This document shows positions 784-16,353 of a DNA stretch of 64,000 nucleotides, piece by piece. Numbering within the stretch: the first letter of the stretch is position 1; every line of letters starts with the position of its first letter. The position numbers and the translations under genes are program-made. The notes under the pieces are model-generated. The model did no database searches. It saw only the letters and a program-made list of their open reading frames with translations, and had not been told where the DNA came from. Origin of the DNA: Phycisphaerae bacterium (GTDB lineage: Bacteria > Planctomycetota > Phycisphaerae > UBA1845); the NCBI GenBank assembly GCA_024102815.1, contig JAGFJJ010000068.1, positions 7,915 to 71,914 of the forward strand, written 5' to 3'.

Positions 784-922
784 AACGCGGGCATCCTTTC
801 TTCCATCCGGGTAGGCGGCGGACTTGGCCCCGCCGTTTCAGGGATTGATCCGGAATCGTAGGAAGGGATTCGGATGGTGCGGGTTCCGCCCGAAGTCCAG
901 TCGCCTGCCGTGGCCGCACGCG

Positions 923-1510
923 TCAACTCCGGCCGATTCGCGAGAGACGCTGCATGAGGGCCGGATGCTCGCCTAGCACCCTTGGGAAGTCAGCGCGTAG
1001 GCGGCCGGCAGAGCCTTCGGTCAATTCAGAAGGCAGCAGATGCCCGAAGCGTTCGAGGTACTCGTCCGGGGCGGCGAGCTTCTCTTTGGTTGACAGGCCA
1101 TTCCAGTAGTGCGCTATTCTCGCGGCCACCTCGTTCTCTGCGTATTGACCGGCGAGCCTCCGCGCGAGGTCCTTGAGCACGCGGTAGACGCCTCCCTCGG
1201 TACCGGTTCGGGCCATTTCAAAAGCGGCCTTCTCTCCATTGGGTCCGTATTCCTTCAAAAGTAGCGGCAAACATCGCCCCCAGTTGAATCCGAAACTTGC
1301 CGCCACCGGCTCGGGAAGACGCCACACGCGAGCCTCGACATGACCGAGGAAGTCCGTAACGCATCGGCGGAACTCTCCGACATCCGTGATTCGGCCCGCC
1401 GGGTACGAAAACGAGTTCATCGCCGCATCGACGCGCCGGTCTACTTCGTCCAGCGTCCGATCAGCAGCGATACGCTCCAAGAGCACAGCTAGTTTGCTGT
1501 CGGCCATCAT
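923..1510 (-). CDS. hypothetical protein; stand-alone copy of an unrecognised ~170-aa domain ('domain X') shared with 1519..2100 and the C-terminus of 2119..3795
   Basis: Alignable blocks: VGEFRRCVTDF / EGGVYRVLKDLARRL / YLERFGHLLPSEL. These match NFEEFCEVIGDY / NGGLRVVLDTIALAF / FIRQCGANLSSSI and HEEFLDTTCAFY / HGGMRFVLDLMTEQH / LLERIGSALPEDI in the two upstream genes. Only 8 bp separate it from the upstream stop. Confidence 0.6.
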   Translation of the reverse strand: MMADSKLAVLLERIAADRTLDEVDRRVDAAMNSFSYPAGRITDVGEFRRCVTDFLGHVEARVWRLPEPVAASFGFNWGRCLPLLLKEYGPNGEKAAFEMARTGTEGGVYRVLKDLARRLAGQYAENEVAARIAHYWNGLSTKEKLAAPDEYLERFGHLLPSELTEGSAGRLRADFPRVLGEHPALMQRLSRIGRS

Positions 1511-1518
1511 CGTTTTGA

Positions 1519-2100
1519 CTACAAGCGCCGGAAGATCGAAGAGGTCCTCTGAAGGGATTCGACGTACGAACGAATCAATTCGGAGAAGTCGTGCGCGTAC
1601 CGTTCAGGCTGATCGGCGTGAATAGACGAGGAGAGATTCGCTCCGCATTGACGGATGAACTGTCTGATGATCTCGACTTTGTCTTCCCAGATATTGGGCG
1701 CAACCTGCCGATCGAATACCCCGCGGACATATCGCTCGATGGAGTCGTCGATGAAAGCAAGGGCAATCGTGTCGAGAACGACTCGAAGACCGCCGTTGGT
1801 TCCATCCGCCGCGTCATTGTAAGCGTCCATAATAGTGGCCCGGCGGCGGCGCAGCTGACTTTCGAGAGCTTCCTTGGCACGGCCGGTGGCCTCAGACTCT
1901 GATAACCGTGCACCATCAGTGACGCAGTAGGAAAAGTGATGGTTGTAGTAGTCCCCGATGACTTCGCAGAACTCCTCGAAGTTGCGTACTGTGTTTCCGT
2001 TAAGCGCGAAACGCATGCGCGCCTCATCGTGGCGACCGCGCACGCGCCTCGCGATTTCACGCTCATCGAGCGCGGCCAGCGTAGCGTTAATCGATACCAT
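1519..2100 (-). CDS. hypothetical protein; second stand-alone copy of domain X
   Basis: 193-aa ORF with ordinary composition. ATG at 2100 is preceded by AAAGGAA at 8 nt spacing. Shares the motif blocks listed for 923..1510. The overlapping ORF 1575..2216 in another frame is Ser/Arg-rich and rejected. Confidence 0.6.
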   Translation of the reverse strand: MVSINATLAALDEREIARRVRGRHDEARMRFALNGNTVRNFEEFCEVIGDYYNHHFSYCVTDGARLSESEATGRAKEALESQLRRRRATIMDAYNDAADGTNGGLRVVLDTIALAFIDDSIERYVRGVFDRQVAPNIWEDKVEIIRQFIRQCGANLSSSIHADQPERYAHDFSELIRSYVESLQRTSSIFRRL

Positions 2101-2118
2101 CGTGGCGTTCCTTTCTGT

Positions 2119-3795: not shown

Positions 3796-4496
3796 GTTCG
3801 AGTCTCCTGCCCCTTCCAAGTAATCGCAATTGAACCGGATTCGAGGCCTGGATGTACGTGAAGAATCAGGCGATTTCCGATGAGACTCGCTTGGAAGGCC
3901 GGCTCGGTGTCCGGCTCCCCGCTATCGGCCGCCATCGGGAGCGGATCTTCTGGAAACCCCACGGACCAGATGAGGTCTTCGGCCGTCAGCGTACGCTCCC
4001 ACAGGACGCGGCCGGACTCCAGGCGCAGCCGGTAGTGCCCCGGCGTGACGTCGTGAATACTGTATGCGTCGCTGTCCTGCCCCAGGGCGAAACCGGCCAT
4101 CACCACTCCATTCCGCTCCACGATGATCTCACGAATCGAGGGGCGGTCCGCTGCGGAGCGGATGCCGCCACAGAACGTCTGGTAAATCTCGTCATCTCCG
4201 GAGGGGCCTGAATCGCCCGGTGTCTGGGTGACCCCCGGCTCCCCCTCCGAACCGGTCAGGCGTCTCACGCAGGACGCCACAACATCATCCAAGACCGACG
4301 ATTCTCCGGTGAATCCCGTTCTTGAGTACTCCCGAGCGACTTCGTCCATGAAGCGACGGAACTGCCTGAAGCCTGCCGTTTGTCTGGAAGGGCCGATTCT
4401 CGTGATCCGATCAAACGCCTCTCGAAGCGCGGACTTCGGATCGGGCTGCTCGAACGCATTGACAACAATCGGGATGAAAAAGAGGCGATCGTTCAC
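3792..4496 (-). CDS. hypothetical protein
   Basis: ORF with ordinary composition. The track starts it at GTG 4505. GTG 4496 lies 8 nt after a GGAGG and forms a GTGA overlap with the stop (4495..4493) of the upstream gene. No family recognised. Confidence 0.5.
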   Translation of the reverse strand: MNDRLFFIPIVVNAFEQPDPKSALREAFDRITRIGPSRQTAGFRQFRRFMDEVAREYSRTGFTGESSVLDDVVASCVRRLTGSEGEPGVTQTPGDSGPSGDDEIYQTFCGGIRSAADRPSIREIIVERNGVVMAGFALGQDSDAYSIHDVTPGHYRLRLESGRVLWERTLTAEDLIWSVGFPEDPLPMAADSGEPDTEPAFQASLIGNRLILHVHPGLESGSIAITWKGQETRT

Positions 4497-5644
4497 GGCG
4501 AGCACCTCCGGTTATCAGCGCGCACGATCACCTCGATCTTGGGCCACACGCCGGCTTCTCTGGCCATCTCGACGAATTCAGAATGATGGGCCAGGACTCT
4601 CGCGGTATTGGCCCACAGGTCCGGGACCACGGACTTCGAATTGGTTTGCCAACGGCTGCCTGCGAAACGGCTAAACGTAGCCTTGCTGATGTCGAATGCA
4701 CTGGCCACGGCGCTGTCCCGGTAGCACCCCCGGCTCAGGTCTTCGAAGACACGCAGAATCAGTCTACGCAAGTTGTGACAGCCGATGGCACGGATTGCAT
4801 CGCGCTGGCGCGCGAGGTTGTTGGCCTTTTCGTCGGCCACCGTTTCGGCCAAGCCACGGATGCTGACCTCTCTTTCCAGCAACCAACGGAGCGGCGCGTC
4901 CTCGGCGCGGTCTGTGGGGAGTCTGTTGACCTTGCTACCGAGGGGTAGGGTCGAGGCCCAGCCGAACCGTAGATTGACGATGCTCTGAACGCGTTTGGTC
5001 TCACCTGGTCGTGCGGGATCCGGATCGTCGATGTTGGCCTCCAACCACGCCCGGCGCTGATTGCCCGGCAACCGTGAAGGGAGCCAGACATAGACCACGC
5101 CGCCGCCGACTGACCAGGCGTAGCGAGTTCTTGTCCGATCGAGACTCCGCTTTGCGTCGAGACAAGAGAGGTAGAAGTGACGCACCACAAGGCGCTGAAG
5201 GTACCTGGCAATGGCTGTCTCCTCCTGCAAATCATCCGCGGAAGGATGAGATCGTCTCCAAGCCTCGCCGTGGCGCAGCACCGTCCCGAAGTACAAGCGG
5301 CAGTCCGAACCACTCTGTTTCACCGGCGCGCCTTGCCGGGGCGCGCCTGGCAAGTTGGTGAACTTGTCGATGGTGATGTCATAACCCCGATCGGCTACGC
5401 TTGGATCATCCCCGGACAGCCTCCGGGTGGCATATTCCCGGCGAAGGGAATCCAGGAGTTTGACCAAAAGCGAGGGAGGCCCACCGCGAAATCGAAACAC
5501 AGGCCGGTATCCATGGAATTCCTCCAATGCCCGCCGATCGCCGGAATGGCAGATCAAAGCGATCAGGCAAAGGAGCGAAGATGCACGAAGGGGGCGGTGA
5601 TCGTCCGCGCGGGAATGCCGTAGGTGAGCCGCGAGCGACGTCAT
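4493..5644 (-). CDS. hypothetical protein with C-terminal sigma-70 region-4-like HTH
   Basis: ATG 5644..5642 overlaps the kinase stop TGA 5643..5641 (ATGA). The C-terminal LRRLILRVFEDLSRGCYRDSAVASAFDISKATFSRFAG looks like a region-4/LuxR-type HTH. The rest is unrecognised. Confidence 0.5.
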   Translation of the reverse strand: MTSLAAHLRHSRADDHRPLRASSLLCLIALICHSGDRRALEEFHGYRPVFRFRGGPPSLLVKLLDSLRREYATRRLSGDDPSVADRGYDITIDKFTNLPGAPRQGAPVKQSGSDCRLYFGTVLRHGEAWRRSHPSADDLQEETAIARYLQRLVVRHFYLSCLDAKRSLDRTRTRYAWSVGGGVVYVWLPSRLPGNQRRAWLEANIDDPDPARPGETKRVQSIVNLRFGWASTLPLGSKVNRLPTDRAEDAPLRWLLEREVSIRGLAETVADEKANNLARQRDAIRAIGCHNLRRLILRVFEDLSRGCYRDSAVASAFDISKATFSRFAGSRWQTNSKSVVPDLWANTARVLAHHSEFVEMAREAGVWPKIEVIVRADNRRCSP

Positions 5645-7275
5645 GACCGCTCTCCAACTGACCTGGACCGCAGCGCGGCCGTCCATTGGGCGACGCGTCG
5701 GTCCACCCGCCGAGCGAGAGCGAGAGCACGGTCCCGGTCACCCGCGGCGACAGCCTGGTCGATCCGCACACGTTCCCGTCGAATGAACTCCACGACCTTC
5801 GCCGCCTGTCGCCGGGCCGGCATAACAGCCGTGCCTCCGGGGGAGAGCCGCTCCGCCTCTTCGAAACAGGACAGCGCCTTTTCCCAATTGCCGTCTTCCG
5901 CGTTTACCAGTCCCTGCTGCATCGCATCTCGATACAGTCGGGCCCGGAATGTCACCTGGACCTGGATCAGCCGTGCGGAGGGATGCTCAGGATACAGTCT
6001 GGCGGCTTCCGCGAGCATTCCCAGAAGCTCCTCAAGTCCCGACTCGTTCATTCCGTCCTTAATAGTGCGGTACAAACACTCGGCCTGATGAAAACGATCT
6101 TCGATCGCTTCCTGCATGTGTTTGGCGTCCGTGTTGTTTGGGCATTCCTCAAGAATGTGATGACACAGCCTCAGCGCATCGTCGAAGCGACCGTGCTCCA
6201 CCATGCGGCATGCCTGGTCCCACGATTCGTCTTGCGGATCGGGGTTGGCGACCGGTCGATCGGCCTGCGGGCGGCATGTGGGAGATTCAAGGTCGTCGAG
6301 GATGTCCGCTACACGCACGTAGCGCTGAGCGCTGTGTTTCGCCAGACAGCGGTTGATGACGTGCGCGACGTTTCTCGCTACGTCCGGCAGCGGTGGCGCT
6401 GCGACCTGAGTATGCAGATAACGGAGCCGTTCGAAGTTCCCTCCGAATGGAGGCCTGCCCTTCGGGTTGAGGATTTCGTATAGTACGACACCGAGACTGT
6501 AAACGTCGGAGCGGGCGTCGAGATCATCCGGATGCGGCGCGTTGAAGTGCTCCGGACTCATGTAGGCGGGCGTACCGGGGCAAGGATTGTCGTCCGCGCT
6601 GAACGACCCGTTTTCCGGATTGGGCGCCAGGCTCTCGAGGTACCGGGACAGACTGAAGTCCGCCACTTTCACGACGCCACGAACAAGAAGGAAGTTCTCC
6701 GGCTTCAGGTCGAGGTGCACAACGCCGGCGCCGTGGATGGCGGCGACGCCGCGGCAAATCTCCTTGAACATCTCAATGCCGCGGGTCTGGCGAGCCTCGA
6801 TATCAGACCGTCGGTTGAGCAACCACTGCCGCAGATCACCGCCGTCCGCATGCTCCATGGAAAGGACCATCAACATCGTGCCATGCCACGGCACCACGTG
6901 AAGATCGTACACTTTGAGAACGTGCCTGTGATCTTGAACGCGATCGTAAAGATCCTGTTCTTGCTGAAGCTCCCGTGCGGTGTGTTCCGAACCGGAGGGA
7001 CCTACGTCCACGACCTTGATCGCCACATCATGCGCACGCGTGGTATCACGGGCTGCGTAGACCTCGCCGATGCTCCCGCTGCCGATGTGCCTGTGGATGC
7101 AAAACCGCCCGAGCTGCGTGTTGCGCGATAGTGAAGGGGCACGATGGGCGTGTCCGTGCGCCATAGAGAGAAACGGGCCATCTCCCCGAACAGACTGCGA
7201 CCCGTTACACGATCCGGGACCCCAATCGAATGGTCTGCCGATTCTCGGAGTCAGACTCAATATGTTCTGCGACAT
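5641..7275 (-). CDS. Hanks-type Ser/Thr protein kinase with C-terminal TPR-like helical region
   Basis: Gly-loop IGSGSIGEVY; VAIK; catalytic HLDLKPENFLL; VADFSLSR (DFS in place of DFG); GTPAYMSPE. The C-terminal half is helical and repeat-like. Confidence 0.9.
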   Translation of the reverse strand: MSQNILSLTPRIGRPFDWGPGSCNGSQSVRGDGPFLSMAHGHAHRAPSLSRNTQLGRFCIHRHIGSGSIGEVYAARDTTRAHDVAIKVVDVGPSGSEHTARELQQEQDLYDRVQDHRHVLKVYDLHVVPWHGTMLMVLSMEHADGGDLRQWLLNRRSDIEARQTRGIEMFKEICRGVAAIHGAGVVHLDLKPENFLLVRGVVKVADFSLSRYLESLAPNPENGSFSADDNPCPGTPAYMSPEHFNAPHPDDLDARSDVYSLGVVLYEILNPKGRPPFGGNFERLRYLHTQVAAPPLPDVARNVAHVINRCLAKHSAQRYVRVADILDDLESPTCRPQADRPVANPDPQDESWDQACRMVEHGRFDDALRLCHHILEECPNNTDAKHMQEAIEDRFHQAECLYRTIKDGMNESGLEELLGMLAEAARLYPEHPSARLIQVQVTFRARLYRDAMQQGLVNAEDGNWEKALSCFEEAERLSPGGTAVMPARRQAAKVVEFIRRERVRIDQAVAAGDRDRALALARRVDRRVAQWTAALRSRSVGERS

Positions 7276-7287
7276 CGCGGACCCTCC

Positions 7288-9276
7288 TCAGATGGGTCGA
7301 AGCGCGAGCGCTTCGGTGCGCAGACGCTGCAAGGTGTGGTTGATGACTCGGTTCAAGCCACGCAGCCATGAATTGCTCGTTTCGTGCCGATAAAGTCCGT
7401 CGAACGCCTCAAGCAGCGTCCGGTTATGTTCCGCAGGCGTATGGCCGGGATCACCTGTTCCGGCATCGAAGAGGACCGAGCGGACAAGTACATTTTGCAG
7501 CCCATCGTGAAAGGCCTCGATGGTCGAACAGAGCCTCGGCAGGCGAGAACGCGAATCACCTCCAAACACAACCGTTTCGGTCTCGCGTACTCTCCCATCT
7601 GTTATCCACCAGAGGGCCTGAACCCTGGCCGGCGACAGGCCCATCCGTCCGTCCTCGGCGCGGATCTCTTCAAACTTGGCGGCGATCTTCTCGGCGGTCA
7701 GGGCGGCCTCGGGGCACGGCACAGGCTTGGATCGCTCCAGCAGCCACAGACCTTGGAACTTCATGTCGAGTACCGCTGCCGCCTGAATCCCGAAAGCGAG
7801 TCTCTCCTCCGTGGGCGCCGAGGTTGCGATGACGCACCTATTCTCCTTGAGCAGCTTCGCGATCCTCGCCAGGCGCTCGAACGTCTCCGAATCGTCAGGG
7901 GCGCGCTGGAGGTTCCGGAGGCAAGCGCTGTGGGCCTCAGCATACAGGCCGATCTGTTCGAGGATCTCCGCGTAGCGAAGTATGGACCGGGTGGAGCGCG
8001 GATCACCAGCCGGCAGCAACTGTATGAGGCGATGGCGCGCCTTGAGTTCACCCAAAGAGTCGTTTTTCGCAGCAGCCTCGTGAGCGCGCAGGCCCGAGAT
8101 GACCGCCTCGAAGCCACGTTTTTCAAGCTTGTGGTAGCTTTCCTCCAGTCCTTCGAAGCGTCTCGAATGGATGCCCTGCTGAATCCGATAGCACAATGCC
8201 CGCGCTTCGCTGACCTCTCGCTCTCGGCGCGCTAAATGACGCACCAGAGCAGGCGGGCCGACGACAGTGCGGTAGTGGTTTCCCGGGAGACGACAGTCCG
8301 GCTGAAGTCGCTCCGTGCCAGTCGCCCAGATGGCCGCCGTGCCGTCTTCGTGGATAAGCAGTAGCTTCAACGGCCCGGTATCAGGCACAACCGCCGCGGA
8401 CACAACGCCGCACGGGCCCTTCGCCTCTGCGACCCGAGTAACGGTGCCGTGACCAGCGCTGTTCGAAGACCACGTCCAGGTTCTTAGCAGGCCGTCTTCT
8501 CGTCCGATCGTGCAGAGCCGGCCGTCCTCGGTGATCGCAACGCTGAAGTTGCCGCCATGAGCCGGGCACACGCTGATCCGCAAGTCGCCAAGGTCCACGA
8601 GGACCAGCTCTCCGTCCGCGGAGGCGTACACGGCGGAGTTGCAGACGGGCCAGTGCTGCAATTGAACCAGGCCAAGCGTGACGGGCGGAACCGGGGCGTC
8701 GACGTTGTCTGCCAACTCCCCGGAGGGGAGGCGCAGCAGCAGCACCTTGCCTGAGGACGAAAGTCCCAGCAGTCTGTGGTCAGGGAGAGCCAGAAGGGAG
8801 CAGACCTTACCCTCGCGACGTTCCAAGCAGCGCGGGCGGTCAAACGACGAGTGTCCCGGGGGCCAGAGCAGGCATCGACCGGCCATATCACTGCTGGCCA
8901 GCAATCCACCGTCCAGTAGACAGACCGACAGCACCGGCGCACCCTGAACGAGCGACAACCGCTCAAGCCGGTCCGCGCGGGCCTGCTGCGCAGTTTCTCG
9001 GAGGATATCGATCGTGCCGTGACGCGATCCTGCCGCGACAACACCGCCCCGTTCGTCCACGTCGATTGCGTAGATGCTATGGCCCGCAGGCAGGCTAAGC
9101 AGCCTCGTGGAGTCTTTCCCGGCGTGGCACAACATCATCAGCCCGGGACTGGAACCTCCGGTCCCAAGGAGCAAACTGGATGTCACACTTTGGCCGTTCT
9201 TGTTCACCATCAGGGACTGCATCCAATTCCACGCAACATAACGACGGTGTGGCAATTCACATTCGCAGACGGTCAA
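7288..9276 (-). CDS. WD40/beta-propeller-like repeat protein with helical (TPR-like) C-terminal half
   Basis: Repeated blade-like strings: GSRHGTIDIL, SSDMAGRCLLW, SSSGKVLLL, ASADGELVLVD, GREDGLLRTWTW, IHEDGTAAIWA. Start uncertain (9276 or ATG 9222). Stops 12 bp before the kinase start. Confidence 0.7.
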   Translation of the reverse strand: MTVCECELPHRRYVAWNWMQSLMVNKNGQSVTSSLLLGTGGSSPGLMMLCHAGKDSTRLLSLPAGHSIYAIDVDERGGVVAAGSRHGTIDILRETAQQARADRLERLSLVQGAPVLSVCLLDGGLLASSDMAGRCLLWPPGHSSFDRPRCLERREGKVCSLLALPDHRLLGLSSSGKVLLLRLPSGELADNVDAPVPPVTLGLVQLQHWPVCNSAVYASADGELVLVDLGDLRISVCPAHGGNFSVAITEDGRLCTIGREDGLLRTWTWSSNSAGHGTVTRVAEAKGPCGVVSAAVVPDTGPLKLLLIHEDGTAAIWATGTERLQPDCRLPGNHYRTVVGPPALVRHLARREREVSEARALCYRIQQGIHSRRFEGLEESYHKLEKRGFEAVISGLRAHEAAAKNDSLGELKARHRLIQLLPAGDPRSTRSILRYAEILEQIGLYAEAHSACLRNLQRAPDDSETFERLARIAKLLKENRCVIATSAPTEERLAFGIQAAAVLDMKFQGLWLLERSKPVPCPEAALTAEKIAAKFEEIRAEDGRMGLSPARVQALWWITDGRVRETETVVFGGDSRSRLPRLCSTIEAFHDGLQNVLVRSVLFDAGTGDPGHTPAEHNRTLLEAFDGLYRHETSNSWLRGLNRVINHTLQRLRTEALALRPI

Positions 9277-9838
9277 TCTCGAAGAGGCCGTCCAGCTCCG
9301 TCTGTCCGGAAGGCAACAGGCAATGCGGAGGCGCCGTCACGGGACTCGACGTAAGCAGCGGGTCACACGGTTGTTGAACCGGCGGTCTCGGCAGGCTGCT
9401 CGGCAACGCGGGGGCGACCGCATCTTGCAGCGCATTTTCGGCAGACGCGATTTTCTGCTCGATTTGCGAGTGCATGGCAACGTGTTCCCGGTGTTCGGCA
9501 TTCAGCTGGTCCTCGGCCTCGGAATAGTGGTCTTCAGCTTGCCGGCCATGGAGCCGGGCGCAGTGGTCCGCGATGAGCTCACGGTTGCGGAAAAGCCGAT
9601 CGATCTCGGATTCCGAGGCCGCCAGATACTCGTGCAGTTCCTTGTCCAGCGTTTGCAGGCGGGCCCTCTCTGCGTTCAGCTCACCGATATACGGCCATTC
9701 CCAGACACCATCGAAGCCGAGCCTCGGTGGAACACCGGCGATCCTCTTCAGTTCCTCAATACACTCGTCAACTCTGGTTAGCAGCTGGGTGGCGTTTTCG
9801 AGGCTGTACGATTCCTGAGCGGGAGGTGACGGCGGCAT
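9257..9838 (-). CDS. hypothetical coiled-coil protein
   Basis: I use the internal ATG 9838 (MPPSPPAQESYSLENATQLL...), which sits 1 nt after the stop of 9840..10358. The 102 codons upstream in the track ORF (to 10144) are Arg/Lys/Ser-rich and overlap the better acidic ORF. Confidence 0.5.
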   Translation of the reverse strand: MPPSPPAQESYSLENATQLLTRVDECIEELKRIAGVPPRLGFDGVWEWPYIGELNAERARLQTLDKELHEYLAASESEIDRLFRNRELIADHCARLHGRQAEDHYSEAEDQLNAEHREHVAMHSQIEQKIASAENALQDAVAPALPSSLPRPPVQQPCDPLLTSSPVTAPPHCLLPSGQTELDGLFEIDRLRM

Positions 9839-9839
9839 G

Positions 9840-10358
9840 CTACGATCTCCCCGCCGCTTGAATTCGCGCGCGTTGTTCCTCGTGAAGGCGCTCGCTCTCC
9901 TGGCGGGCCTCTTGGGCTTCACGCTCATGCTCATCGAGGAGTTCGATGTCACGCTGCGTTTCCATCTTGGCCTTTTCGAGTTCGCTTTTCGCCTCGTCGC
10001 TGTGCAGGCGATTCTCGCCGTCCGCGATCTTGCCCATATCCGATGAGGCCGCGTCGGATCGCTCGTGAAGCTCCTTCTCGAACTCTTCGCCCTCGTTCTG
10101 GACCTGTTCCAGCGTTTCGCCGTCTTCCTCGAACTCCCGGACACTCGTCTCCTGTGCCGCTTCGACCGCCTGTTCGACGGCCTCCGCCGCGTCGGACGTC
10201 CCGGTCAAGTCGAGACTCTCCAGAGTCTCCCGCTCCGTCTCGACGTCATCCGCGTGTTTCTCCAGGGCATCCGTCTTCTCATCGAATTCCGTCTTTCGGT
10301 CATCGACCGTTCTGGTCAGGTCGCTCCGCGTGGGAGCATCCGTTCGTCGCTTGCGCAT
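9840..10358 (-). CDS. highly acidic coiled-coil protein
   Basis: 172 aa, roughly 30% Asp+Glu by my count, with heptad-like charged repeats. GGAG lies 8 nt upstream of ATG 10358. Confidence 0.6.
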   Translation of the reverse strand: MRKRRTDAPTRSDLTRTVDDRKTEFDEKTDALEKHADDVETERETLESLDLTGTSDAAEAVEQAVEAAQETSVREFEEDGETLEQVQNEGEEFEKELHERSDAASSDMGKIADGENRLHSDEAKSELEKAKMETQRDIELLDEHEREAQEARQESERLHEEQRARIQAAGRS

Positions 10359-10451: not shown

Positions 10452-13232
10452 TCACTGATCGCGATCGGGGCGACCTGCCAACTCCTCGAGTCGGTTAAGC
10501 AGCGACGCCGTTTGCGGCTCGATAAGCGTCTCGAAACGGCTCACGAGAGCGGCTCGAAGCTGACCGGTGCCACAGTCATCACCTTCAGACGGTGGTCCCG
10601 CGCCGAGGAGGTTGCGGTACGGACCGCGCCGGAGGCCGGCAAGAGAAGCGGCGAGCCGATCGCGCAGGCTCCGGGCGCACCGAGCCAACCCGGCGTGCCG
10701 GGAAGAGGAGTTCCCATTGCCGGTGGCGCTTAGAATCCGCTCGCGGTCCCTGTCTATTCGTTTGAGTCCGTCATGGACACGCCGCTTGTCCTCCTCGAAT
10801 CGATCCATCGCGTTGCGCAAGCGGCCCAGTTCGTCAGCGCTGCGAAGGACGGTGGCCTTGACAAACCAGTCCTCGCGACTGATCAGCTCTGCGAGTTCCT
10901 GATCTGTCGGCGGCGCTTCCAGCTTCAGGGTGGTGGCCAGGTCGGGCGTTCGAATCCGCTGCGGACCGTGGTACCCCTCGGTATACAGATAGGCCTCGCC
11001 CGGCGTTAGACGGGCGACCTCTTCCGTTTCGACCGGGCCGAAGAGCATCGCGCTACCCACGATCTCCCGATCGTCGGCGTCCACCAGGCGGAAGGCGAGC
11101 TTGCTACCGGTGTTCTTGATTACTTCGGGGGCGACGGCCGAAGGCAGCTGATCGATGATGATGATCGCAACTCCGAGAGCGCGCAACTCGGCCAGCATCC
11201 GGCATATGTACTCGGCGGCGAAGGCTTTGGGATCCGGGTTGTCTTCAGAGGGCGCCGCATCGCCGCTACGACCGACGACGTTGTGCGCCTCCTCAATGAC
11301 TATGACAAACCGTGTGTCGCCGGAGAATCGCGGATGGGCCCGAACGTGCTCGCGCACGGCGGTGAGGAGAAAGAGGGTCACTAGGCATTTCAATTCCGGC
11401 GGAAGCGAGTCGAGTTCGAGGATGGAGTAAGACCGCATCAACTCGTCGATTCCCGGGACGTTGGTTCCGCACTGGAACATCCGGCCAATCGTTCGACGGA
11501 TGAGCTTCCCGAGACGCACTTCCAACGCCGCCGCCAGGTCGGACTTGAGATCCGCGGAGTAGCTTTTCTCAGATAGAACGGCCTGCGCTGCAGCGCACAG
11601 ATCATGCATGACCGGGAATGTATCTGGATCCGCCTGCTCGTCGTAAACACGCTCCAGCGCCTCGCCGAGAATCCCCGGCAAGGGGCCGGACATCGCCATG
11701 GCCGCCTGGAAGCAGACCAAGAGGTTCTCGATGTGTTCATCGCGAGCGATACCCTCCGGATGCCAAAGCGGATTAAGGCGAAACGGTGAAACGATCTCGA
11801 CACCGGGCGTGTGGACCTTGAGTTGTTCTGCCAGCTCACGAGCGCCGGCGTCGTGGCTTCCCGACAGTGTCTTGAGAATGCGATACTGCGTGTTCGCAGT
11901 TTCGATAACCAGGAACGGCGTGCCGCGACGAGACAGTTGCAGCAGGGTGTTAAACGTGGACACGGTCTTGCCGCTGCCGGGAACGCCACTGATGAACCAG
12001 TGCTTGGGCAGGCCGTTATCGCGAATGCCGCGCAATACGCGCGATTCCGAGGCGCCAATATGCTGTCCATCGAATCCGACGGTGATGAGCCGATCATGCG
12101 GCACTTGGGGTGGGTCCGTATTGCGCCGGATGCAGCACGGCGATCCGTACGATGCGACCGGAAGACACCAGACTCCGGCCAATTCGTCTACGGTCGCGAC
12201 GTGGCCGAGACGCGACAGCCCGCTATATGTGGAGGCGTGTACACCCAAGACGAGGTCGTGTGTCGGAAAGCCCAGTACCTGGTGGTCCCGAACCGCCTGA
12301 AGGGCCTGATCGAAGAGACATTCACCCTTACGACATGCAAAAAGCCTATAACTGCCGCCATCAAACGCGGATTCCGCAACAGTCGACACCAGAAGATGCG
12401 CTACTTCCGGCGTCTTCGCCAGGACACGAGCGTGGAACGCGAGATGGGGCTGTGACAGGGTCTCGTGAAAGCTGCGGCGCTGCCGCAGGATGTCGTCAGC
12501 GAGAGGATCCTTGTAGCGCAGGGGCATTACGGTCGATCGCCCGCGTCGTGCGTATCGGTCTTCTGGGCAGAACGGGTCGGGTTCCGCGCCGTCCTCCGCG
12601 TCGTTGAAATCACTGGAGCGGTTGATGGCCTGCAACCTGGCCAGATCCCGGGTATGTTCGGTTCGCTCGGTTCGGACGCAGGTCGGCTCGACACAGATGT
12701 CGATCAGTGCCGGCTCATTGAGGCGGCTTAGGACGGAGTCGAGCTTCATGCCATCATTACTGTGGGTCGGCGTGAACGGATCGATAGTGTAGTATACAGG
12801 CGGGATCCGCGGATTGAATTCCGCGGAGTGGAGGGGATCGACCGCCCCCTCAGCCCGCGCTATGTCATGGGCCGCCGCAAACACCTCCCAGGGTACGCTG
12901 CATTCCTCAACGGCTTGCAGGGTGTAAAGCTCCACCAACGCCGATGACTCGATAAGGGCTCGAAAGCTGGAGGCCGTCTCTTTCCGTGGAGCGTTGATGA
13001 TCAGGAAGATAGCAAGTCGATCCTGCACGTTTCCGGACTTGGGCGCCGGAGTGAAGGCCAACCGCACGGACACCGCCACAGATTGCGGCGCTCTGGACGC
13101 CACAACCCGCAGCAGGTGCTCCTGCGCGCCTCGAACCGCCGAGGGCACGTCAGCGCGAGCGAGCAGCCGGTAGCGCGGGAAGGCCGAGTCCGGAAGATGG
13201 CCGACACGGTAGATCAACACGTGTGGCTTCAT
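10452..13232 (-). CDS. HerA/FtsK-superfamily (DUF87-like) P-loop ATPase, large
   Basis: Walker A FISGVPGSGKTVSTFNTLLQL. Walker B region FVIVIEEAHNVV. GVAIIIIDQLPSAVAPEVIKNTGSKLAFRLVDADDRE is typical of HerA-type ATPases. ATG 13232 (MKPHVLIYRV...) forms an ATGA overlap with the E1 stop (13231..13229). Coiled-coil C-terminal tail. Confidence 0.85.
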   Translation of the reverse strand: MKPHVLIYRVGHLPDSAFPRYRLLARADVPSAVRGAQEHLLRVVASRAPQSVAVSVRLAFTPAPKSGNVQDRLAIFLIINAPRKETASSFRALIESSALVELYTLQAVEECSVPWEVFAAAHDIARAEGAVDPLHSAEFNPRIPPVYYTIDPFTPTHSNDGMKLDSVLSRLNEPALIDICVEPTCVRTERTEHTRDLARLQAINRSSDFNDAEDGAEPDPFCPEDRYARRGRSTVMPLRYKDPLADDILRQRRSFHETLSQPHLAFHARVLAKTPEVAHLLVSTVAESAFDGGSYRLFACRKGECLFDQALQAVRDHQVLGFPTHDLVLGVHASTYSGLSRLGHVATVDELAGVWCLPVASYGSPCCIRRNTDPPQVPHDRLITVGFDGQHIGASESRVLRGIRDNGLPKHWFISGVPGSGKTVSTFNTLLQLSRRGTPFLVIETANTQYRILKTLSGSHDAGARELAEQLKVHTPGVEIVSPFRLNPLWHPEGIARDEHIENLLVCFQAAMAMSGPLPGILGEALERVYDEQADPDTFPVMHDLCAAAQAVLSEKSYSADLKSDLAAALEVRLGKLIRRTIGRMFQCGTNVPGIDELMRSYSILELDSLPPELKCLVTLFLLTAVREHVRAHPRFSGDTRFVIVIEEAHNVVGRSGDAAPSEDNPDPKAFAAEYICRMLAELRALGVAIIIIDQLPSAVAPEVIKNTGSKLAFRLVDADDREIVGSAMLFGPVETEEVARLTPGEAYLYTEGYHGPQRIRTPDLATTLKLEAPPTDQELAELISREDWFVKATVLRSADELGRLRNAMDRFEEDKRRVHDGLKRIDRDRERILSATGNGNSSSRHAGLARCARSLRDRLAASLAGLRRGPYRNLLGAGPPSEGDDCGTGQLRAALVSRFETLIEPQTASLLNRLEELAGRPDRDQ

Positions 13233-14719
13233 ATCGCAGCCGCCTGCTCGGCAAACTCCGCCGCGTCGTCGCCGCTGACCTCCACGCCGTCTCTTGCAGC
13301 CGTCTCGCCGACGTAGTCTCCGCAGCACGGACATCCGGTGTTACGCGGCAGGTCGACGCCGTACCAACGAAGGACATGCATGCCATCGACGCTGCACTCC
13401 AGCGGTTCGAGGTTCTCGAAGTCCGTATCCTTTTCTCGGCGATTCAACCAGATGTACCATGGGGCCGAGAGATCCTCATCCAGTGACTTCAGCGTTGTCT
13501 CCTTGCCCTTCAGCAATTCCTGGATGACGAGTTTGACGACCATGAGGCTGATCGGGGCGATGTCCGTCGAGAGCCCCGGCTCGACGGCAACCGGACGATC
13601 CGAGTACGCTACCTCATCTGCTTGCTCCTGGTTGGATACCCGCTCATACGCCGCCTGCTCGGGTAGGGCCCCCAGAAAGCACTGGTAACAGGGAGACTCA
13701 TGCGGCCGCACCCTGAGTACTTGCCCGCCGTGCGCACGCCGAAAGGCCGCCGCGATGATGCACGGCGTGTTCTCCTCCACGCAGAGCTTGTTTAGGATCA
13801 CTCGGCTTTCGCGGTTGTCCGTAGCGATGACGACGACGTCCGCCCTGCGGATGATGCGACGAAGAAACTCCGTGTTGTTCCAGGAGACTTTACAATCCCA
13901 GGCACGCACCTCGGCGAACGGGTTCTTCTCCAGGATCATCTCCCGCATCACGTCGGTCTTGAGCCGTCCCACGTCGGAGATACCCGCCATGTGCCGGACC
14001 ACATTACCGGTTTCAAGCCGATCGTGATCCATGATGTCGAAGTGCATGACTCCCTGTTTCGGCAGCTCCCAGGCAATGGGAGACCCGCCCGATCCCAGGC
14101 CGACGACGAAGACTGTTGCATCCGCGAGTGCGTCAGTCTCCAGCAGACCCTTGGCACGCGAGAACAGCTCTTCACGCACCGGAATCACGCAGACCGTCGC
14201 TGCCTTCCAGCCGTCGCCCGTCCGAACGAAGCCGAGGATCTCGTGGGGAGACTGCCCCATCGCTTCACCGGACGGTGACGTCCGCGGAGAGACAATGACC
14301 CTCACGCGATCGGTCGGCGCGCCGATCTCGGTGACGGCGATCCCCTGCCCGGGCGGGGCCCACTGGATCGTTGCAGGAAGCGCTCTGGACAGGTCTGTCT
14401 TCGCAATCCCGTTGTAGACCTTGCCGCCGTCCCTGCATTGGAGTGCCAAACGCCTGGGCTCGCGCGTGCTAAGCACGGTGTGAATCTGCTCACCGGGCAG
14501 TACGATGAACGGGACGCGCTCCTCCGGATCCGCAAACACGTCCATGTCCTCCGGCTTCACGGACAGGTACCTGTCCGGGTCCTTGCCATCCGTGACTTCC
14601 GCGTCGTCCACTCTTACGAGCCTGCGCAGGTCCTTACTGTAAACGATCCGCCCGCCGGCGGTGTTGCCGGTACGTACATCGTCCATGGCCTCACGAATCC
14701 TAGCTTCCTCAGTTTGCAT
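13229..14719 (-). CDS. E1-like ThiF/MoeB-family adenylyltransferase with ~190-aa N-terminal extension
   Basis: VFVVGLGSGGSPIAWEL (GxGxxG); DHDRLETGNVVRH; IATDNRESR; two Cys pairs (SPCYQCF and GCPCCGDY). Overlaps the E2 stop by 11 bp. Confidence 0.85.
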   Translation of the reverse strand: MQTEEARIREAMDDVRTGNTAGGRIVYSKDLRRLVRVDDAEVTDGKDPDRYLSVKPEDMDVFADPEERVPFIVLPGEQIHTVLSTREPRRLALQCRDGGKVYNGIAKTDLSRALPATIQWAPPGQGIAVTEIGAPTDRVRVIVSPRTSPSGEAMGQSPHEILGFVRTGDGWKAATVCVIPVREELFSRAKGLLETDALADATVFVVGLGSGGSPIAWELPKQGVMHFDIMDHDRLETGNVVRHMAGISDVGRLKTDVMREMILEKNPFAEVRAWDCKVSWNNTEFLRRIIRRADVVVIATDNRESRVILNKLCVEENTPCIIAAAFRRAHGGQVLRVRPHESPCYQCFLGALPEQAAYERVSNQEQADEVAYSDRPVAVEPGLSTDIAPISLMVVKLVIQELLKGKETTLKSLDEDLSAPWYIWLNRREKDTDFENLEPLECSVDGMHVLRWYGVDLPRNTGCPCCGDYVGETAARDGVEVSGDDAAEFAEQAAAI

Positions 14720-15176
14720 TTTGGATTCTCTCCTTTTGTTTATCTATGAACTTCGCAATGCTCTCACCCGTACGCAAGTGCGCCGCATACGCTTCAATCC
14801 AGAGCATTCCACGCATAAAGATCGCAATCATGGTCATGCGTGCATCCCAACCGCTCATAAAGCAGATCGCCACACAACCACTGGGGTGTTTGCTAGCCGT
14901 GTGAAACTCGTGGGATGCACCAAGCGAGTTGATCGTGGAGAGGTTTCCATGCTTCCAGAGAACTTGCGGACTCGCCACGATGAGAAAGGGCTTCTCATGC
15001 GGATAGTTGGGAGTGAGCAGCAACCTCAGGCGGTACACCTCAGATCCCGCCGTTGGCGTAACGGGTCCTTCAACATACGTGTCGCGGGCTGGGTTGAAGA
15101 ACTCAAACTGAGGCATCGTACGCTGGAGCTGCTTTTTCTCTAACGCCAAGCGGTAGCGTTCATCTGGTGACCACAT
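14709..15176 (-). CDS. E2/UBC-like protein (prokaryotic E2 family)
   Basis: Internal ATG 15176 (MWSPDERYRLALEKKQL...) with AAGGA 8 nt upstream. LLLTPNYPHEKPFLIVASPQVLWKHGN resembles the UBC YPxxPP flap plus an HPN-like HGN motif. Candidate catalytic Cys in SGCVAICFMSGWD. Confidence 0.65.
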   Translation of the reverse strand: MWSPDERYRLALEKKQLQRTMPQFEFFNPARDTYVEGPVTPTAGSEVYRLRLLLTPNYPHEKPFLIVASPQVLWKHGNLSTINSLGASHEFHTASKHPSGCVAICFMSGWDARMTMIAIFMRGMLWIEAYAAHLRTGESIAKFIDKQKERIQNAN

Positions 15177-15192: not shown

Positions 15193-16353
15193 TTACAGGT
15201 ACCTTCCAAACCACTCGAGCATGCGTCCTCGACCCGGTTGCCCGTCACGTCCGCCGGTTGCTCGGGAAGCCTCGTCGCGACCGTCCTGCTTGGGCAGATC
15301 TGTCGTACACTTGGTTTTGCCGTGATGGACAAGGGACTCGGCCCGAGCGTAGATCGTGCTGATGACCGTTTGTGGTCCATCGGGAAGGACAGCGCACGAA
15401 ATGTCGCGGACGTCACACTGCTCCGGCGTTGTGAGACCGACTGAGCGGACTTCGTGGGGCGGTGTCGCGTCGTAGGCGATGAGGATTCGCCAAGAAGATA
15501 GAGACAAGCTGAGGATGATGACTTCGCCCTCTATGTGCAAACTCAGATCCTCGAGGATTGACTCGGGCAGCGCGGCAACCTGCTGGGCGATATGCTCAGG
15601 AATATCCGTAGTTGGTTCGTCCCTCTCGACGTGGGGATCGAACAGTAGGCGGTTCATGGGGAACGCGCGATTCTCCACGCCTGGGCCCGCACCGTTAAGT
15701 AGGTCATTGAGGCTCATCGTCAGCCCGACGGGACTGATTCCTGGGATCGTCTTGATCGGACATCGCTCGTACTCGGCTGCCTGGGGATCGGTGTGATGAA
15801 AGGAGTTGATCCTTACGATGGTGTTTTCTTGATCAGGGCGAGGACGTGCTCTCGATGCGAGCAACTGCGCGCCGTTGAACGCGCGCTGCATGCACGTCGA
15901 GATCAAGCCGGCGGAGCGGTCCACTCTTGGGGCGCCGCGTTCGTGCGTGACGATGATCTCGACCAAGCGCGAAAGGTCGTTTCGTTGGCTCAGCGATTGT
16001 ATCGTCCGCTCGTCGCCGGAGCTAAGATGATCCAATCCTAGTGAGTAATGGCTGTGCCAGCGACCGACGAGCTGGATCCCGTATGTCTCCTGGAGGAACC
16101 GGGTGACTCTTTTGAAGTGGTCGACATCTTGAGCGAAGTGCGTTGCCTCGTGAACAGCGTTCGGTCCTGGACTCGAGGCAAACAGCACCACGGCTCGCCC
16201 GGCATGTGTCCATAACCCATAGAGATACCCCCCAGTCTCAAGATCTGTCCAGGCCGCGGATGTGGCTGCAATGCACTGAAGCACCGACTGCCAAGTGGTG
16301 AAGTATCGATCGTGCTCGGTCTGTTTCGCGCGTTTCTTGCGAGGTCGTGGCAT
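15193..16353 (-). CDS. JAB/JAMM (MPN+) metallopeptidase with ~230-aa unrecognised C-terminal region
   Basis: ETGGYLYG (Glu) followed by GRWHSHYSLGLDHLSSGD, which is the HxH-x7-S-xxD JAMM motif. First gene of the minus-strand run. Confidence 0.8.
   Translation of the reverse strand: MPRPRKKRAKQTEHDRYFTTWQSVLQCIAATSAAWTDLETGGYLYGLWTHAGRAVVLFASSPGPNAVHEATHFAQDVDHFKRVTRFLQETYGIQLVGRWHSHYSLGLDHLSSGDERTIQSLSQRNDLSRLVEIIVTHERGAPRVDRSAGLISTCMQRAFNGAQLLASRARPRPDQENTIVRINSFHHTDPQAAEYERCPIKTIPGISPVGLTMSLNDLLNGAGPGVENRAFPMNRLLFDPHVERDEPTTDIPEHIAQQVAALPESILEDLSLHIEGEVIILSLSLSSWRILIAYDATPPHEVRSVGLTTPEQCDVRDISCAVLPDGPQTVISTIYARAESLVHHGKTKCTTDLPKQDGRDEASRATGGRDGQPGRGRMLEWFGRYL

What the first reader, a model, noticed from the sequence alone, without database searches (positions are those of the whole stretch)
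10452..13232. HerA-type ATPase is translationally fused in expression (ATGA) to the E1 enzyme
The E1 stop and the ATPase start share the tetranucleotide ATGA at 13232..13229. This implies stoichiometric co-expression. In known HerA-based defence systems (for example SIR2-HerA and DUF4297-HerA) the ATPase scaffolds and activates an effector. Here the immediately coupled partner is an adenylating E1. The ATPase also carries a ~420-aa N-terminal region and a ~150-aa coiled-coil tail of unknown function. This raises the testable idea that the HerA ring is either the platform or the target of E1/E2-mediated conjugation.
Basis: inference. Interest (0 to 1): 0.55.

Follow-up and report, generated by a model that had tools for sequence, protein, structure and literature searches.

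The report
E1 gene abuts ring-ATPase gene
The four-base overlap between a ubiquitin-activating-type (E1) gene and a large ring-motor ATPase gene is real, and the two genes sit side by side in dozens of distant bacteria. But the E1/E2/JAB set looks like an optional regulatory add-on to a larger, undescribed gene system that also exists without it.

Summary
**Observation: confirmed.** The E1 stop (TGA, 13231-13229) and the ATPase start (ATG, 13232-13230) overlap as ATGA. Homologue N-termini support this start.

**Interpretation: partly supported.**
- In 59 non-identical related loci, E1 is always directly followed by this ATPase. Spacing is -35 to +99 nt, median +10.
- Only 9 of the 59 have a 4-nt overlap. 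Three other junctions of the same operon overlap more consistently. ATGA therefore shows operon compaction, not a special 1:1 pairing.
- The ATPase belongs to the FtsK-HerA superfamily. Its core is closest in fold to the DndH C-domain and VirB4. It is not a canonical HerA.
- It heads a conserved, wholly cytoplasmic core of about 11 genes: coiled-coil protein, beta-propeller, kinase, Lon-like protease, TrwB/VirD4-like second ATPase and others.
- This core occurs without JAB-E2-E1 in a whole ATPase clade, in one locus inside the E1-linked clade, and in a second copy in this same genome.
- Close relatives of the E1 cassette serve CBASS and TIR operons. There the partner cyclase ends in Gly.
- The ATPase C-terminus is not conserved, so the ATPase is unlikely to be the activated donor. 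Whether it is an acceptor or platform remains untested.
- No gene fusions and no E1-specific ATPase signature were found.

**Prior scan notes.** Earlier notes list other E1/E2/JAB plus HerA-like operons on other DNA. None shares sequence with this one.

The parts
13229..13232 (-). ATGA stop/start overlap: E1 stop TGA 13231-13229, ATPase start ATG 13232-13230
   Evidence: Read directly. Frames checked. Start supported by homologue N-termini.
10452..13232 (-). 926-aa FtsK-HerA-superfamily ATPase, first gene of the conserved core
   Evidence: PADLOC hits: mad8 6.9e-14 and HerA models 1e-8. NCBIfam CedD 5e-14, far below cut-off. Full-length homologues of 33-77% identity in many phyla. 3115 cluster representatives at E<=1e-30.
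12117..13232 (-). ATPase N-terminal alpha/beta region (residues 1 to about 372; disordered loop 208-235)
   Evidence: AF2 model. No Pfam family. Encoded as a separate ORF in several relatives. Only full-length TrwK/VirB4 aligns over it, at high rmsd (Z 23, 590 residues, 7.4 A). Atlas lead DUF8128, score 0.90.
10917..12116 (-). P-loop core (residues about 373-772) with Walker A 416-423 (nt 11964-11987) and Walker B 643-648 (nt 11289-11306)
   Evidence: Motifs. Invariant G416, G419, K422, E647, E648, R684 and R741. VIA-align: DndH-C Z 33.7, VirB4 CTD Z 32.0, HerA 4d2i Z 28.7, TrwB Z 25.6, FtsK Z 19.
10458..10871 (-). Helical tail (residues 788-925, three long helices)
   Evidence: AF2 model. Conserved in clade A including the E1-less paralogue; not alignable in clade B.
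13229..14719 (-). E1 (ThiF/MoeB-type adenylating enzyme, 496 aa): GLGSGG 207-212, DHD 231-233, ATD 299-301, two CxxC pairs at 344/347 and 463/466
   Evidence: Pfam ThiF 1.4e-35 and PADLOC CBASS 'E1-E2' 3e-31. Fold: MoeB/ThiF/UBA5 Z about 25 over residues 178-468. Motifs.
14534..14719 (-). N-module of E1 (residues 1 to about 62). It is a separate small ORF in many relatives.
   Evidence: An HMM of this segment finds 43 separate small ORFs and 34 fused forms, also in CBASS/TIR-linked cassettes. Low-confidence AF2 here: helix 4-16, hairpin 25-36, disordered 39-67. No Pfam family.
14180..14518 (-). Beta-rich domain of E1 (residues about 68-180), found in the ATPase-linked E1s but not alignable in the CBASS-linked and related divergent E1s
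   Evidence: AF2 model. The divergent E1s without a downstream ATPase, including the CBASS-linked ones, align only from about residue 160-184 onward.
14709..15176 (-). E2-like protein (about 155 aa from ATG 15176; YPHEKP, HGN, Cys in GCVAIC)
   Evidence: PADLOC E2 6e-5. Start, Shine-Dalgarno-like GAAGGAA and sequence. Conserved upstream of E1 in all E1+ loci.
15193..16353 (-). JAB/JAMM peptidase (HSH-x7-S-x2-D at residue 100) with a conserved extension of about 200 aa
   Evidence: PADLOC JAB 1.8e-14. Motif. Conserved in E1+ loci to about residue 340.
9840..10358 (-). 172-aa coiled-coil protein, the invariant downstream neighbour of the ATPase
   Evidence: Follows the ATPase in 28 of 32 genome loci, in E1+ and E1- forms alike. 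Junction median +11 nt.
1..9850 (-). Rest of the conserved core: about 200-aa protein, beta-propeller-like 662 aa, Ser/Thr kinase-TPR, 397-aa and 237-aa unknowns, Lon-like protease plus domain X, two domain-X proteins, and the start of a TrwB/VirD4-like ATPase (848 aa in the genome)
   Evidence: tblastn shows synteny across phyla. Pfam Pkinase 7e-40. TrwB_AAD_bind on full-length relatives. Own-genome extension. No transmembrane segments.

Best explanation
**What it is.** The ATGA is an ordinary stop/start overlap inside a long, co-directional, compact operon.

**The ATPase.** It is a cytoplasmic P-loop enzyme of the FtsK-HerA superfamily, and by analogy with its structural relatives a ring-forming motor. 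Its core is closest to DndH-C and VirB4, with a large N-domain and a helical tail. It is the first gene of a conserved core of about 11 genes. That core also holds a coiled-coil protein, a beta-propeller, a Ser/Thr kinase, a Lon-like protease, three copies of an unknown domain and a second, TrwB/VirD4-like ATPase.

**The cassette.** JAB-E2-E1 is a Cap2/Cap3-type accessory cassette placed directly upstream of that core. Its E1 carries an N-terminal module of about 62 residues.

**Inferred mechanism, by analogy with type II CBASS and Cap2/3-linked Thoeris.** E1 adenylates the C-terminus of a component that is still unidentified. E2 transfers it to lysines. JAB processes or reverses the link. This tunes or primes the core machine. 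The ATPase is most likely the motor or assembly hub of the core, not the protein that E1 activates.

**Shown here:** the overlap, the domain folds, the synteny, the optional nature of the cassette, and its kinship with CBASS/TIR cassettes.

**Inferred:** an immune role, conjugation chemistry in this system, and ring formation.
For: **Overlap and start:**

**Synteny.** The whole operon is conserved in Planctomycetota, Thermodesulfobacteriota, Bacteroidota, Lentisphaerota, Nitrospiraceae and Gammaproteobacteria.

**The junction is not exceptional.** E1 to ATPase has median +10 nt, with 9 of 59 as 4-nt overlaps. Kinase to next gene, next to next, and next to Lon all have median -4.

**The cassette is optional.**
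- ATPase clade B (7 loci, support 100/100) has no cassette.
- L026, inside clade A, has none.
- The own genome has a second core copy on C32 plus the end of C17, but only one E1 of this clade.

**The cassette is modular.**
- L104 reads SMODS-JAB-E2-small ORF-E1-S_4TM-SIR2.
- L098 reads E1-SMODS-S_4TM.
- L087 reads E1-TIR.
- E1 there is about 50% identical over the core.
- Both SMODS proteins end in ...FPAYG. This matches the Cap2 substrate rule (PMC10097602).

**The ATPase does not look like the donor or a dedicated partner.**
- Its C-terminal residue varies: G in 7 of 42, K in 6, S in 4, T in 4, and others.
- There is no E1-specific conserved Lys, and the tail motif is kept in the E1-less paralogue.
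- No E1-ATPase fusion appears among 105 close clusters or the best 150 of 3115 representatives. Three apparent fusions were artefacts.

**Folds:**

**Context:** next to a type I restriction R subunit and a sigma-54 activator. No transmembrane segments in any operon protein.
Against: - Adjacency of E1 and the ATPase is invariant within the clade. The ATPase-linked E1s share a beta-rich domain (residues about 68-180) that does not align in the CBASS-linked and related divergent E1s. This could be a dedicated ATPase-docking domain.
- In two related cassettes the gene right after E1 is the presumed conjugation substrate: the cyclase in L098 and TIR in L087. By gene-order logic that favours the ATPase.
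- No operon protein shows the strictly conserved C-terminal Gly/Ala that the analogy predicts, so the donor is unidentified.
- A defence role is inferred only from context and from kinship of parts. PADLOC 2023 has no model for the system as a whole.
Confidence: 0.55

Rival explanations
1. First reader's model. The ATPase ring is the direct acceptor or the platform of E1/E2-mediated conjugation, so the tight E1-ATPase linkage reflects a physical pair.
For: - E1 is directly followed by the ATPase in all 59 non-identical junctions, at -35 to +99 nt, and in 45 of 59 E1-anchored loci.
- The ATPase-linked E1s have an extra domain of their own.
- In L098 and L087 the gene after E1 is the presumed substrate.
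- Solved defence HerAs do scaffold effectors, as the SIR2-HerA and DUF4297-HerA entries listed show.
Against: - No gene fusions.
- No Lys or tail signature restricted to E1-linked ATPases.
- The ATPase works in E1-less systems, including a paralogue in the same genome.
- The junction is no tighter than others in the operon.
- The invariant neighbour of the ATPase is the downstream coiled-coil protein, not E1.
Confidence: 0.22
2. The ATPase is itself the activated donor. E1 adenylates its C-terminus and E2 attaches the whole ATPase to targets, as Cap2 does with cGAS/CD-NTase.
For: The cassette is related to CBASS cassettes, whose cyclases end in Gly. The ATPase occupies the position just after E1, as SMODS does in L098.
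Against: The C-terminal residue of the ATPase is not conserved: G in only 7 of 42 loci, and the window protein ends in ...PDRDQ. Cap2 substrates have a highly conserved C-terminal Gly/Ala, and changing it to Ser, Val, Arg or Trp abolishes conjugation (PMC10097602). The C-terminus ends a long helix in the model.
Confidence: 0.04
3. The first 62 or so residues of E1 are a miniature, non-ubiquitin-fold tag. They are a separate small gene in many relatives. JAB would release the tag, and E1/E2 would activate and attach it, possibly to the ATPase.
For: - 43 separate small ORFs against 34 fused forms, always just upstream of E1.
- The separate forms end in short Gly-rich tails such as ...KKGG...GYGG...FG...EGR. 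Gly lies in the last 5 residues in 15 of 22.
- The segment has low pLDDT and is largely disordered in the model.
- Earlier scan notes describe peptide-led E1/E2/JAB cassettes elsewhere. These are leads only.
Against: - The last residue is Gly or Ala in only 4 of 22 separate forms.
- The window's linker has no Gly, and close relatives have Val or Cys at the candidate position.
- The module also occurs in CBASS loci whose cyclase already carries the C-terminal Gly substrate hallmark. This fits an E1 accessory subunit better.
- A tag fused to its own E1 would need cleavage every time.
Confidence: 0.15
4. The operon is not an immune system. It is a DNA-processing or transfer machine of a mobile element, built from a VirB4-like and a VirD4-like ATPase with a Replic_Relax neighbour, and the conjugation cassette regulates it.
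For: - Core closest to VirB4/DndH.
- The last gene is TrwB/VirD4-like.
- A Replic_Relax gene lies next to the system in the window, L003, L006, L030 and the second copy.
- There are two copies in one genome.
Against: - No transmembrane segment in any operon protein, including the VirD4-like one.
- No other type IV secretion components were found by Pfam.
- Restriction genes lie nearby.
- The cassette's relatives sit in CBASS and TIR defence operons.
Confidence: 0.1

Closest known systems
Type II CBASS accessory module: Cap2 (E2-E1) and Cap3 (JAB). Also Cap2/3-linked Thoeris (PMC10097602; bioRxiv 10.64898/2025.12.03.692087).
   Same: - E1 adenylation domain, E2 with catalytic Cys, and JAB peptidase in one operon with no ubiquitin-fold gene.
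- The best PADLOC matches of the E1 are CBASS 'E1-E2' models.
- E1s about 50% identical over the core lie in SMODS plus S_4TM operons, and a full-length relative about 41% identical lies in a TIR operon.
- The cassette is optional for the system it accompanies.
   Different: - E2 and E1 are separate genes.
- E1 has an extra N-module and a beta-rich domain.
- There is no CD-NTase or TIR here.
- No partner has a strictly conserved C-terminal Gly/Ala.
- The partner system is an undescribed core of about 11 genes headed by a large ATPase.
Defence HerA complexes: SIR2-HerA (Nezha) and DUF4297-HerA
   Same: P-loop core of the same superfamily (Z 24-27). Profile matches to their Walker B to Arg-finger region. 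ATPase encoded next to enzymatic partners.
   Different: - No SIR2 or DUF4297 partner.
- HerA-type N-terminal barrel not demonstrated.
- NCBIfam anti-phage HerA models score 22 bits against cut-offs of 800 or more.
- About 370-aa N-domain and 140-aa helical tail.
- Fold closer to DndH-C and VirB4.
DndH C-domain and VirB4/TrwK-type ATPases
   Same: Best structural matches of the core: 7es4 Z 33.7 with 337 residues at 2.9 A, and 4ag5 Z 32.0. Two-part build of a large N-domain plus a C-terminal ATPase. Full-length TrwK aligns over 590 residues.
   Different: No dnd or secretion genes nearby. No membrane partners. The N-domain alignment to TrwK is poor (rmsd 7.4 A). The sequence profile finds only HerA chains in the PDB.
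MADS defence system (mad6 kinase; MAD7-MAD8, described as an ATPase-nuclease module, PMC13662399)
   Same: Best PADLOC hits of the ATPase (mad8, 6.9e-14) and the kinase (mad6, 9.5e-54). Multi-gene operon with a kinase and two ATPase modules.
   Different: No methyltransferase. No hit to the other mad genes. The mad8 match covers only the P-loop core.

Membership tests
FtsK-HerA superfamily of P-loop ATPases | ASCE P-loop core with Walker A, Walker B (acidic pair) and a conserved Arg, with the fold of HerA/FtsK/VirB4/TrwB | tested here: met
   GVPGSGKT 416-423 and VIVIEE 643-648. Invariant K422, E647, E648, R684, R741. Z 19-34 to DndH-C, VirB4, HerA, TrwB and FtsK over residues about 373-772.
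HerA proper (archaeal/bacterial HerA, anti-phage HerA) | Sequence membership: Pfam DUF87/HerA central domain or NCBIfam HerA models at their cut-offs | tested here: not met
   No Pfam family reaches its cut-off for the window protein. DUF87 hits are weak and found in 12 of 29 relatives. NCBIfam HerA models score 14-22 bits against cut-offs of 800-970.
HerA proper (archaeal/bacterial HerA, anti-phage HerA) | N-terminal HAS beta-barrel before the ATPase core | tested here: inconclusive
   HerA chains align over about 335-360 residues, which is essentially the core. The 370-aa N-region is mixed alpha/beta.
HerA proper (archaeal/bacterial HerA, anti-phage HerA) | Hexameric ring with a dedicated nuclease or effector partner (NurA, SIR2, DUF4297) | not testable with these tools
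   Oligomer state needs experiment or multimer modelling. No NurA, SIR2 or DUF4297 gene was found in the operon.
VirB4/TraC-type secretion ATPase | VirB4-like C-terminal domain plus N-terminal domain, encoded with membrane components of a type IV secretion system | tested here: not met
   The C-terminal domain fold matches (Z 32). But no secretion-system families were found, and no transmembrane segment occurs in any operon protein.
Type II CBASS Cap2/Cap3 module | E1 adenylation domain, E2 catalytic Cys and JAMM peptidase motifs present | tested here: met
   ThiF 1.4e-35, CBASS E1-E2 model 3e-31, E2 6e-5, JAB 1.8e-14. Motifs. E1 fold.
Type II CBASS Cap2/Cap3 module | E2 and E1 fused in one protein (Cap2) | tested here: not met
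   E2 (14709-15176) and E1 (13229-14719) are separate ORFs that overlap by 11 nt.
Type II CBASS Cap2/Cap3 module | Operon partner is a CD-NTase (or TIR) whose C-terminal residue is a conserved Gly/Ala | tested here: not met
   No SMODS or TIR family in the operon. C-termini of all operon proteins were tabulated and none has a conserved terminal Gly/Ala. Related cassettes in L098 and L104 do have SMODS ending in ...AYG.
MADS | Eight-gene mad1-mad8 set including a methyltransferase | tested here: not met
   Only mad6 (kinase) and mad8 (P-loop core) models hit.

The most novel reading that the evidence does not exclude
A Cap2/Cap3-type E1/E2/JAB cassette has been recruited to a new, wholly cytoplasmic immune machine built around two translocase-type ATPases. 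It acts by covalently tagging the VirB4/HerA-like ring. The tag would be either one of the system's own proteins or the roughly 60-residue module now fused to E1. This would be the first case of ubiquitin-like priming of a ring-motor ATPase in bacteria.
Probability: 0.2. Interest if true: 0.8.

Novelty: new variant of a known kind. Interest (0 to 1): 0.48.

Why it matters
Cap2/Cap3-type conjugation is so far tied to nucleotide-signalling defences (CBASS, and recently Thoeris). Here a close relative of that cassette is locked to a different and undescribed partner. That partner is an 11-gene cytoplasmic system headed by a VirB4/HerA-like ATPase, and it is found across at least six phyla.

Natural controls exist with and without the cassette, one pair inside a single genome. 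This makes the question 'what does ubiquitin-like conjugation add to a bacterial immune machine?' directly testable. It also extends the idea that the cassette is a portable regulator.

The specific claim of the finding, that ATGA means a stoichiometric pair, is ordinary operon architecture.

Tried and rejected
1. **E1-ATPase gene fusions.** Three loci (L048, L072, L094) looked fused in a script. Translation showed stops, because tblastn had read through them. No fusion-sized protein appears among 105 close clusters or the best 150 representatives.
2. **Tail as E1-specific docking site.** Clade B tails do not align. But the E1-less paralogue in the same genome keeps the tail and its F-E-x2-I-x-P motif. 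Rejected.
3. **E1-specific acceptor lysine.** No Lys is conserved in E1-linked ATPases and lost in E1-less ones.
4. **Conserved C-terminal Gly/Ala donor.** None found.
   - The third domain-X protein ends in ...GR, ...GRS or ...GRT.
   - The coiled-coil protein often has Gly in its last three residues.
   - Both features also occur in E1-less loci.
5. **N-module as a ubiquitin fold.** The AF2 confidence is low and there is no beta-grasp. No Pfam family.
Neighbourhoods came from the search for related loci and the genome search instead.
7. **Expression.** No RNA holder is listed for this stretch.
8. **Literature.** Searches for an E1/E2/JAB plus HerA plus kinase system found no description.
9. 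**First search for related loci attempt.** The run with 29 sequences failed for lack of a conserved stretch.
10. **Atlas look-up of the N-domain.** It gave only a borderline lead, DUF8128 at 0.90.


Full report
**1. The observation**

On the minus strand the sequence reads ...GCGAT-ATGA-AGCC, with ATGA at 13232..13229. TGA 13231-13229 ends a 496-aa ORF (13229-14719). ATG 13232-13230 is in frame with the large ORF that ends at 10452, giving 926 aa.

The mechanical ORF opens further upstream at ATG 13334. Those 34 codons give an Arg-rich stretch with no counterpart in relatives. The consensus N-terminus of 10 and of 29 homologues aligns with the M at 13232.

Within the window the same kind of 4-nt overlap occurs at three other junctions of the operon: kinase/next gene (ATGA), and two GTGA.

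**2. What the two genes are**

*E1.*
- It is a ThiF/MoeB-type enzyme: Pfam ThiF 1.4e-35, with best PADLOC hits to CBASS 'E1-E2' models at 3e-31.
- Its motifs are GLGSGG, DHD, ATD and two CxxC pairs.
- The AlphaFold2 model (mean pLDDT 69.6) matches MoeB, ThiF, UBA5 and SUMO E1 at Z about 25 over residues 178-468.
- Before that core lie a beta-rich domain (about 68-180) and a poorly predicted N-module (1 to about 62).
- Upstream are an E2-like gene (true start ATG 15176) and a JAMM peptidase.

*ATPase.*
- Walker A lies at 416-423 and Walker B at 643-648.
- The model is confident (pLDDT 87.8). It has an N-terminal alpha/beta region to about 372, a core at about 373-772, and three long helices at 788-925.
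- No Pfam family reaches its cut-off, and NCBIfam HerA models score 14-22 bits against cut-offs of 800-970.
- A profile of 29 homologues finds only HerA chains among PDB sequences, and only over the Walker B to Arg region (E 2.5e-6).
- By fold the core is closest to the DndH C-domain (Z 33.7, 337 residues, 2.9 A) and to the VirB4 C-terminal domain (Z 32.0). HerA follows at 28.7, defence HerAs at 24-27, TrwB at 25.6 and FtsK at 19.
- Only full-length TrwK/VirB4 aligns across the N-region, and poorly (590 residues, 7.4 A).
- 'HerA-type' is therefore right at superfamily level only.

**3. Is the coupling conserved?**

The ATPase has full-length homologues of 33-77% identity. There are 3115 cluster representatives at E<=1e-30.

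Thirty-two genome loci and eighty E1-anchored metagenome loci were compared by tblastn with all operon proteins.

The whole gene order is kept in Planctomycetota, Thermodesulfobacteriota, Bacteroidota, Lentisphaerota and others. The order is JAB, E2, E1, ATPase, coiled-coil protein, small protein, beta-propeller, kinase, two unknowns, Lon-like protease, two domain-X proteins, TrwB/VirD4-like ATPase.

In 59 non-identical junctions E1 is directly followed by the ATPase. Spacing runs from -35 to +99 nt with median +10. Sixteen overlap; nine of these are 4-nt overlaps and three are 1-nt.

From the E1 side, 45 of 59 non-identical loci with at least 500 nt downstream have the ATPase next.

So adjacency is conserved, but the ATGA is not. 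Other junctions are tighter. Kinase to next gene, that gene to the next, and that one to Lon-like all have median -4. ATPase to coiled-coil has median +11.

**4. The cassette is optional and portable**

*Optional.*
- A maximum-likelihood tree of the ATPase splits into clade A and clade B.
- Clade A holds ten E1-linked rows plus L026, which lacks the cassette and is sister to an E1-linked row (support 100/99).
- Clade B holds seven rows, none with the cassette (support 100/100).
- In clade B and L026 the ATPase still travels with the coiled-coil protein, propeller, kinase, Lon-like protease, domain-X proteins and VirD4-like ATPase.
- The window's own genome has a second copy of the core, split over contig C32 and the far end of C17. 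Its ATPase is 45% identical.
- The genome has only one E1 of this clade, and nothing like JAB, E2 or E1 lies upstream of the second ATPase.

*Portable.*
- Among the 14 E1-anchored loci without the ATPase, several show the same cassette in other systems.
- L104 reads SMODS, JAB, E2, small ORF, E1, S_4TM, SIR2.
- L098 reads E1, SMODS, S_4TM.
- L087 reads E1 followed by TIR proteins.
- Both cyclases end in ...FPAYG. This is the hallmark of proteins activated by Cap2: C-terminal Gly/Ala conserved in 1,583 cGAS, with conjugation lost when it is changed (PMC10097602).
- Cap2/3-linked TIR proteins are reported to carry the same tail (bioRxiv 10.64898/2025.12.03.692087).

**5.

*Donor.* The ATPase C-terminal residue varies: G in 7 of 42, K in 6, S in 4, T in 4, and others. 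The window protein ends in ...PDRDQ at the end of a long helix. It fails the Cap2-substrate hallmark.

*Acceptor or platform.*
- No Lys is conserved in E1-linked ATPases and lost in E1-less ones.
- The tail and its F-E-x2-I-x-P motif persist in the E1-less paralogue.
- No E1-ATPase fusion exists in the sets searched. Three apparent fusions were artefacts.

*In favour.*
- The invariant gene order.
- The beta-rich E1 domain shared by the ATPase-linked E1s.
- The position of presumed substrates right after E1 in L098 and L087.

The idea is not refuted, but it has no specific support.

**6. Who is the donor?**

No operon protein has a strictly conserved terminal Gly/Ala.

One lead is the first 62 or so residues of E1.
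- They are a separate small ORF in 43 relatives and fused in 34, always just before E1. They are also present in the CBASS/TIR cassettes.
- The separate forms end in short Gly-rich tails, but the last residue is Gly or Ala in only 4 of 22.
- The window's linker has no Gly.
- The module could be a miniature tag or an E1 accessory subunit.
- Its presence beside a cyclase that already carries the substrate tail favours the subunit reading.
- Earlier notes of this scan report peptide-led E1/E2/JAB cassettes in other genomes. I treat these as leads only. None shares sequence with this locus.

**7. Context and rivals**

No operon protein has a transmembrane segment. A secretion or transfer apparatus is therefore unlikely, despite the VirB4-like and VirD4-like ATPases and a recurrent Replic_Relax neighbour.

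A type I restriction R subunit and a sigma-54 activator lie nearby. PADLOC (2023) has no model for the system. Only the kinase and the P-loop core hit MADS models.

**8. Verdict**

The overlap is real and ordinary. The conserved E1-ATPase adjacency is real and interesting. The best reading is an optional Cap2/Cap3-type regulatory cassette docked in front of an undescribed multi-gene core headed by a VirB4/HerA-like ATPase. Direct action of the cassette on that ATPase remains an open minority hypothesis.

Noticed in passing
window 14534-14719 (-); L001 6896-7066, L045 1602-1775, L048 6001-6186, L057 5729-5914 and others: The first 62 or so residues of E1 are a separate 55-75-aa gene in 43 relatives and fused to E1 in 34. 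The module also occurs in CBASS/TIR-linked cassettes. Separate forms end in short Gly-rich tails. It may be a mini-tag or an E1 subunit. In L001, L013 and L014 it is split from E1 by a single in-frame stop.
   Followed up: partly
own genome: C32:1-10530 (L121) and C17:about 133.6-139.2 kb (L122): A second, paralogous copy of the core system lies in the same genome without JAB/E2/E1. Its ATPase (45% identical) carries one in-frame TGA exactly at the boundary between N-domain and P-loop core.
   Followed up: partly
L005 9980-12817, L018 9476-12539, L037, L042, L097; representatives P0307, P0326, P0340 and others: In several relatives the ATPase is encoded as two ORFs, N-domain and core plus tail. 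Many database representatives of about 500-570 aa cover only profile positions about 396-925. The N-domain is a separable module.
   Followed up: no
window 1-783 (-), continuing to C17:6322-8697 (L113); L011 1843-4359, L030 1362-3893: The last large gene of the operon is a TrwB/VirD4-like coupling-protein-type ATPase of about 840 aa without transmembrane helices. The system therefore has two FtsK-HerA-superfamily ATPases.
   Followed up: partly
window 16465-17538 (+); L003 1997-3055, L006 1-606, L030 8926-9900, L122 6299-7207: A Replic_Relax (PF13814) gene recurs next to the system in distant genomes and beside both copies in this genome. In L030 it is co-directional, directly upstream of the ATPase. 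It may be a regulator or nuclease component.
   Followed up: no
window 923-3795 (-) and orthologues: Two C-termini are sharply conserved. The Lon-like protein and the first domain-X protein end in ...F/L-R-R/T-L. The second domain-X protein ends in ...G-R(-S/T). A TIR protein next to a related cassette (L087 7380-7868) also ends in ...AGR.
   Followed up: partly
window 3792-5644 (-) and orthologues: The junctions kinase/397-aa gene, 397-aa/237-aa gene and 237-aa gene/Lon-like are 4-nt overlaps in the window. They have a median of -4 nt across relatives, so they are more consistently coupled than E1/ATPase.
   Followed up: yes
L104 395-9115; L098 2-3176; L087 4413-8892: CBASS-like and TIR operons carry separate JAB, E2, small ORF and E1 genes closely related to the window's cassette. 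Both SMODS proteins end in ...FPAYG.
   Followed up: partly
L025 9545-17413: A decayed copy of the system: ATPase, propeller and kinase are broken by frameshifts. A remnant of the E1 N-module lies upstream of the ATPase, but no E1 is present.
   Followed up: no
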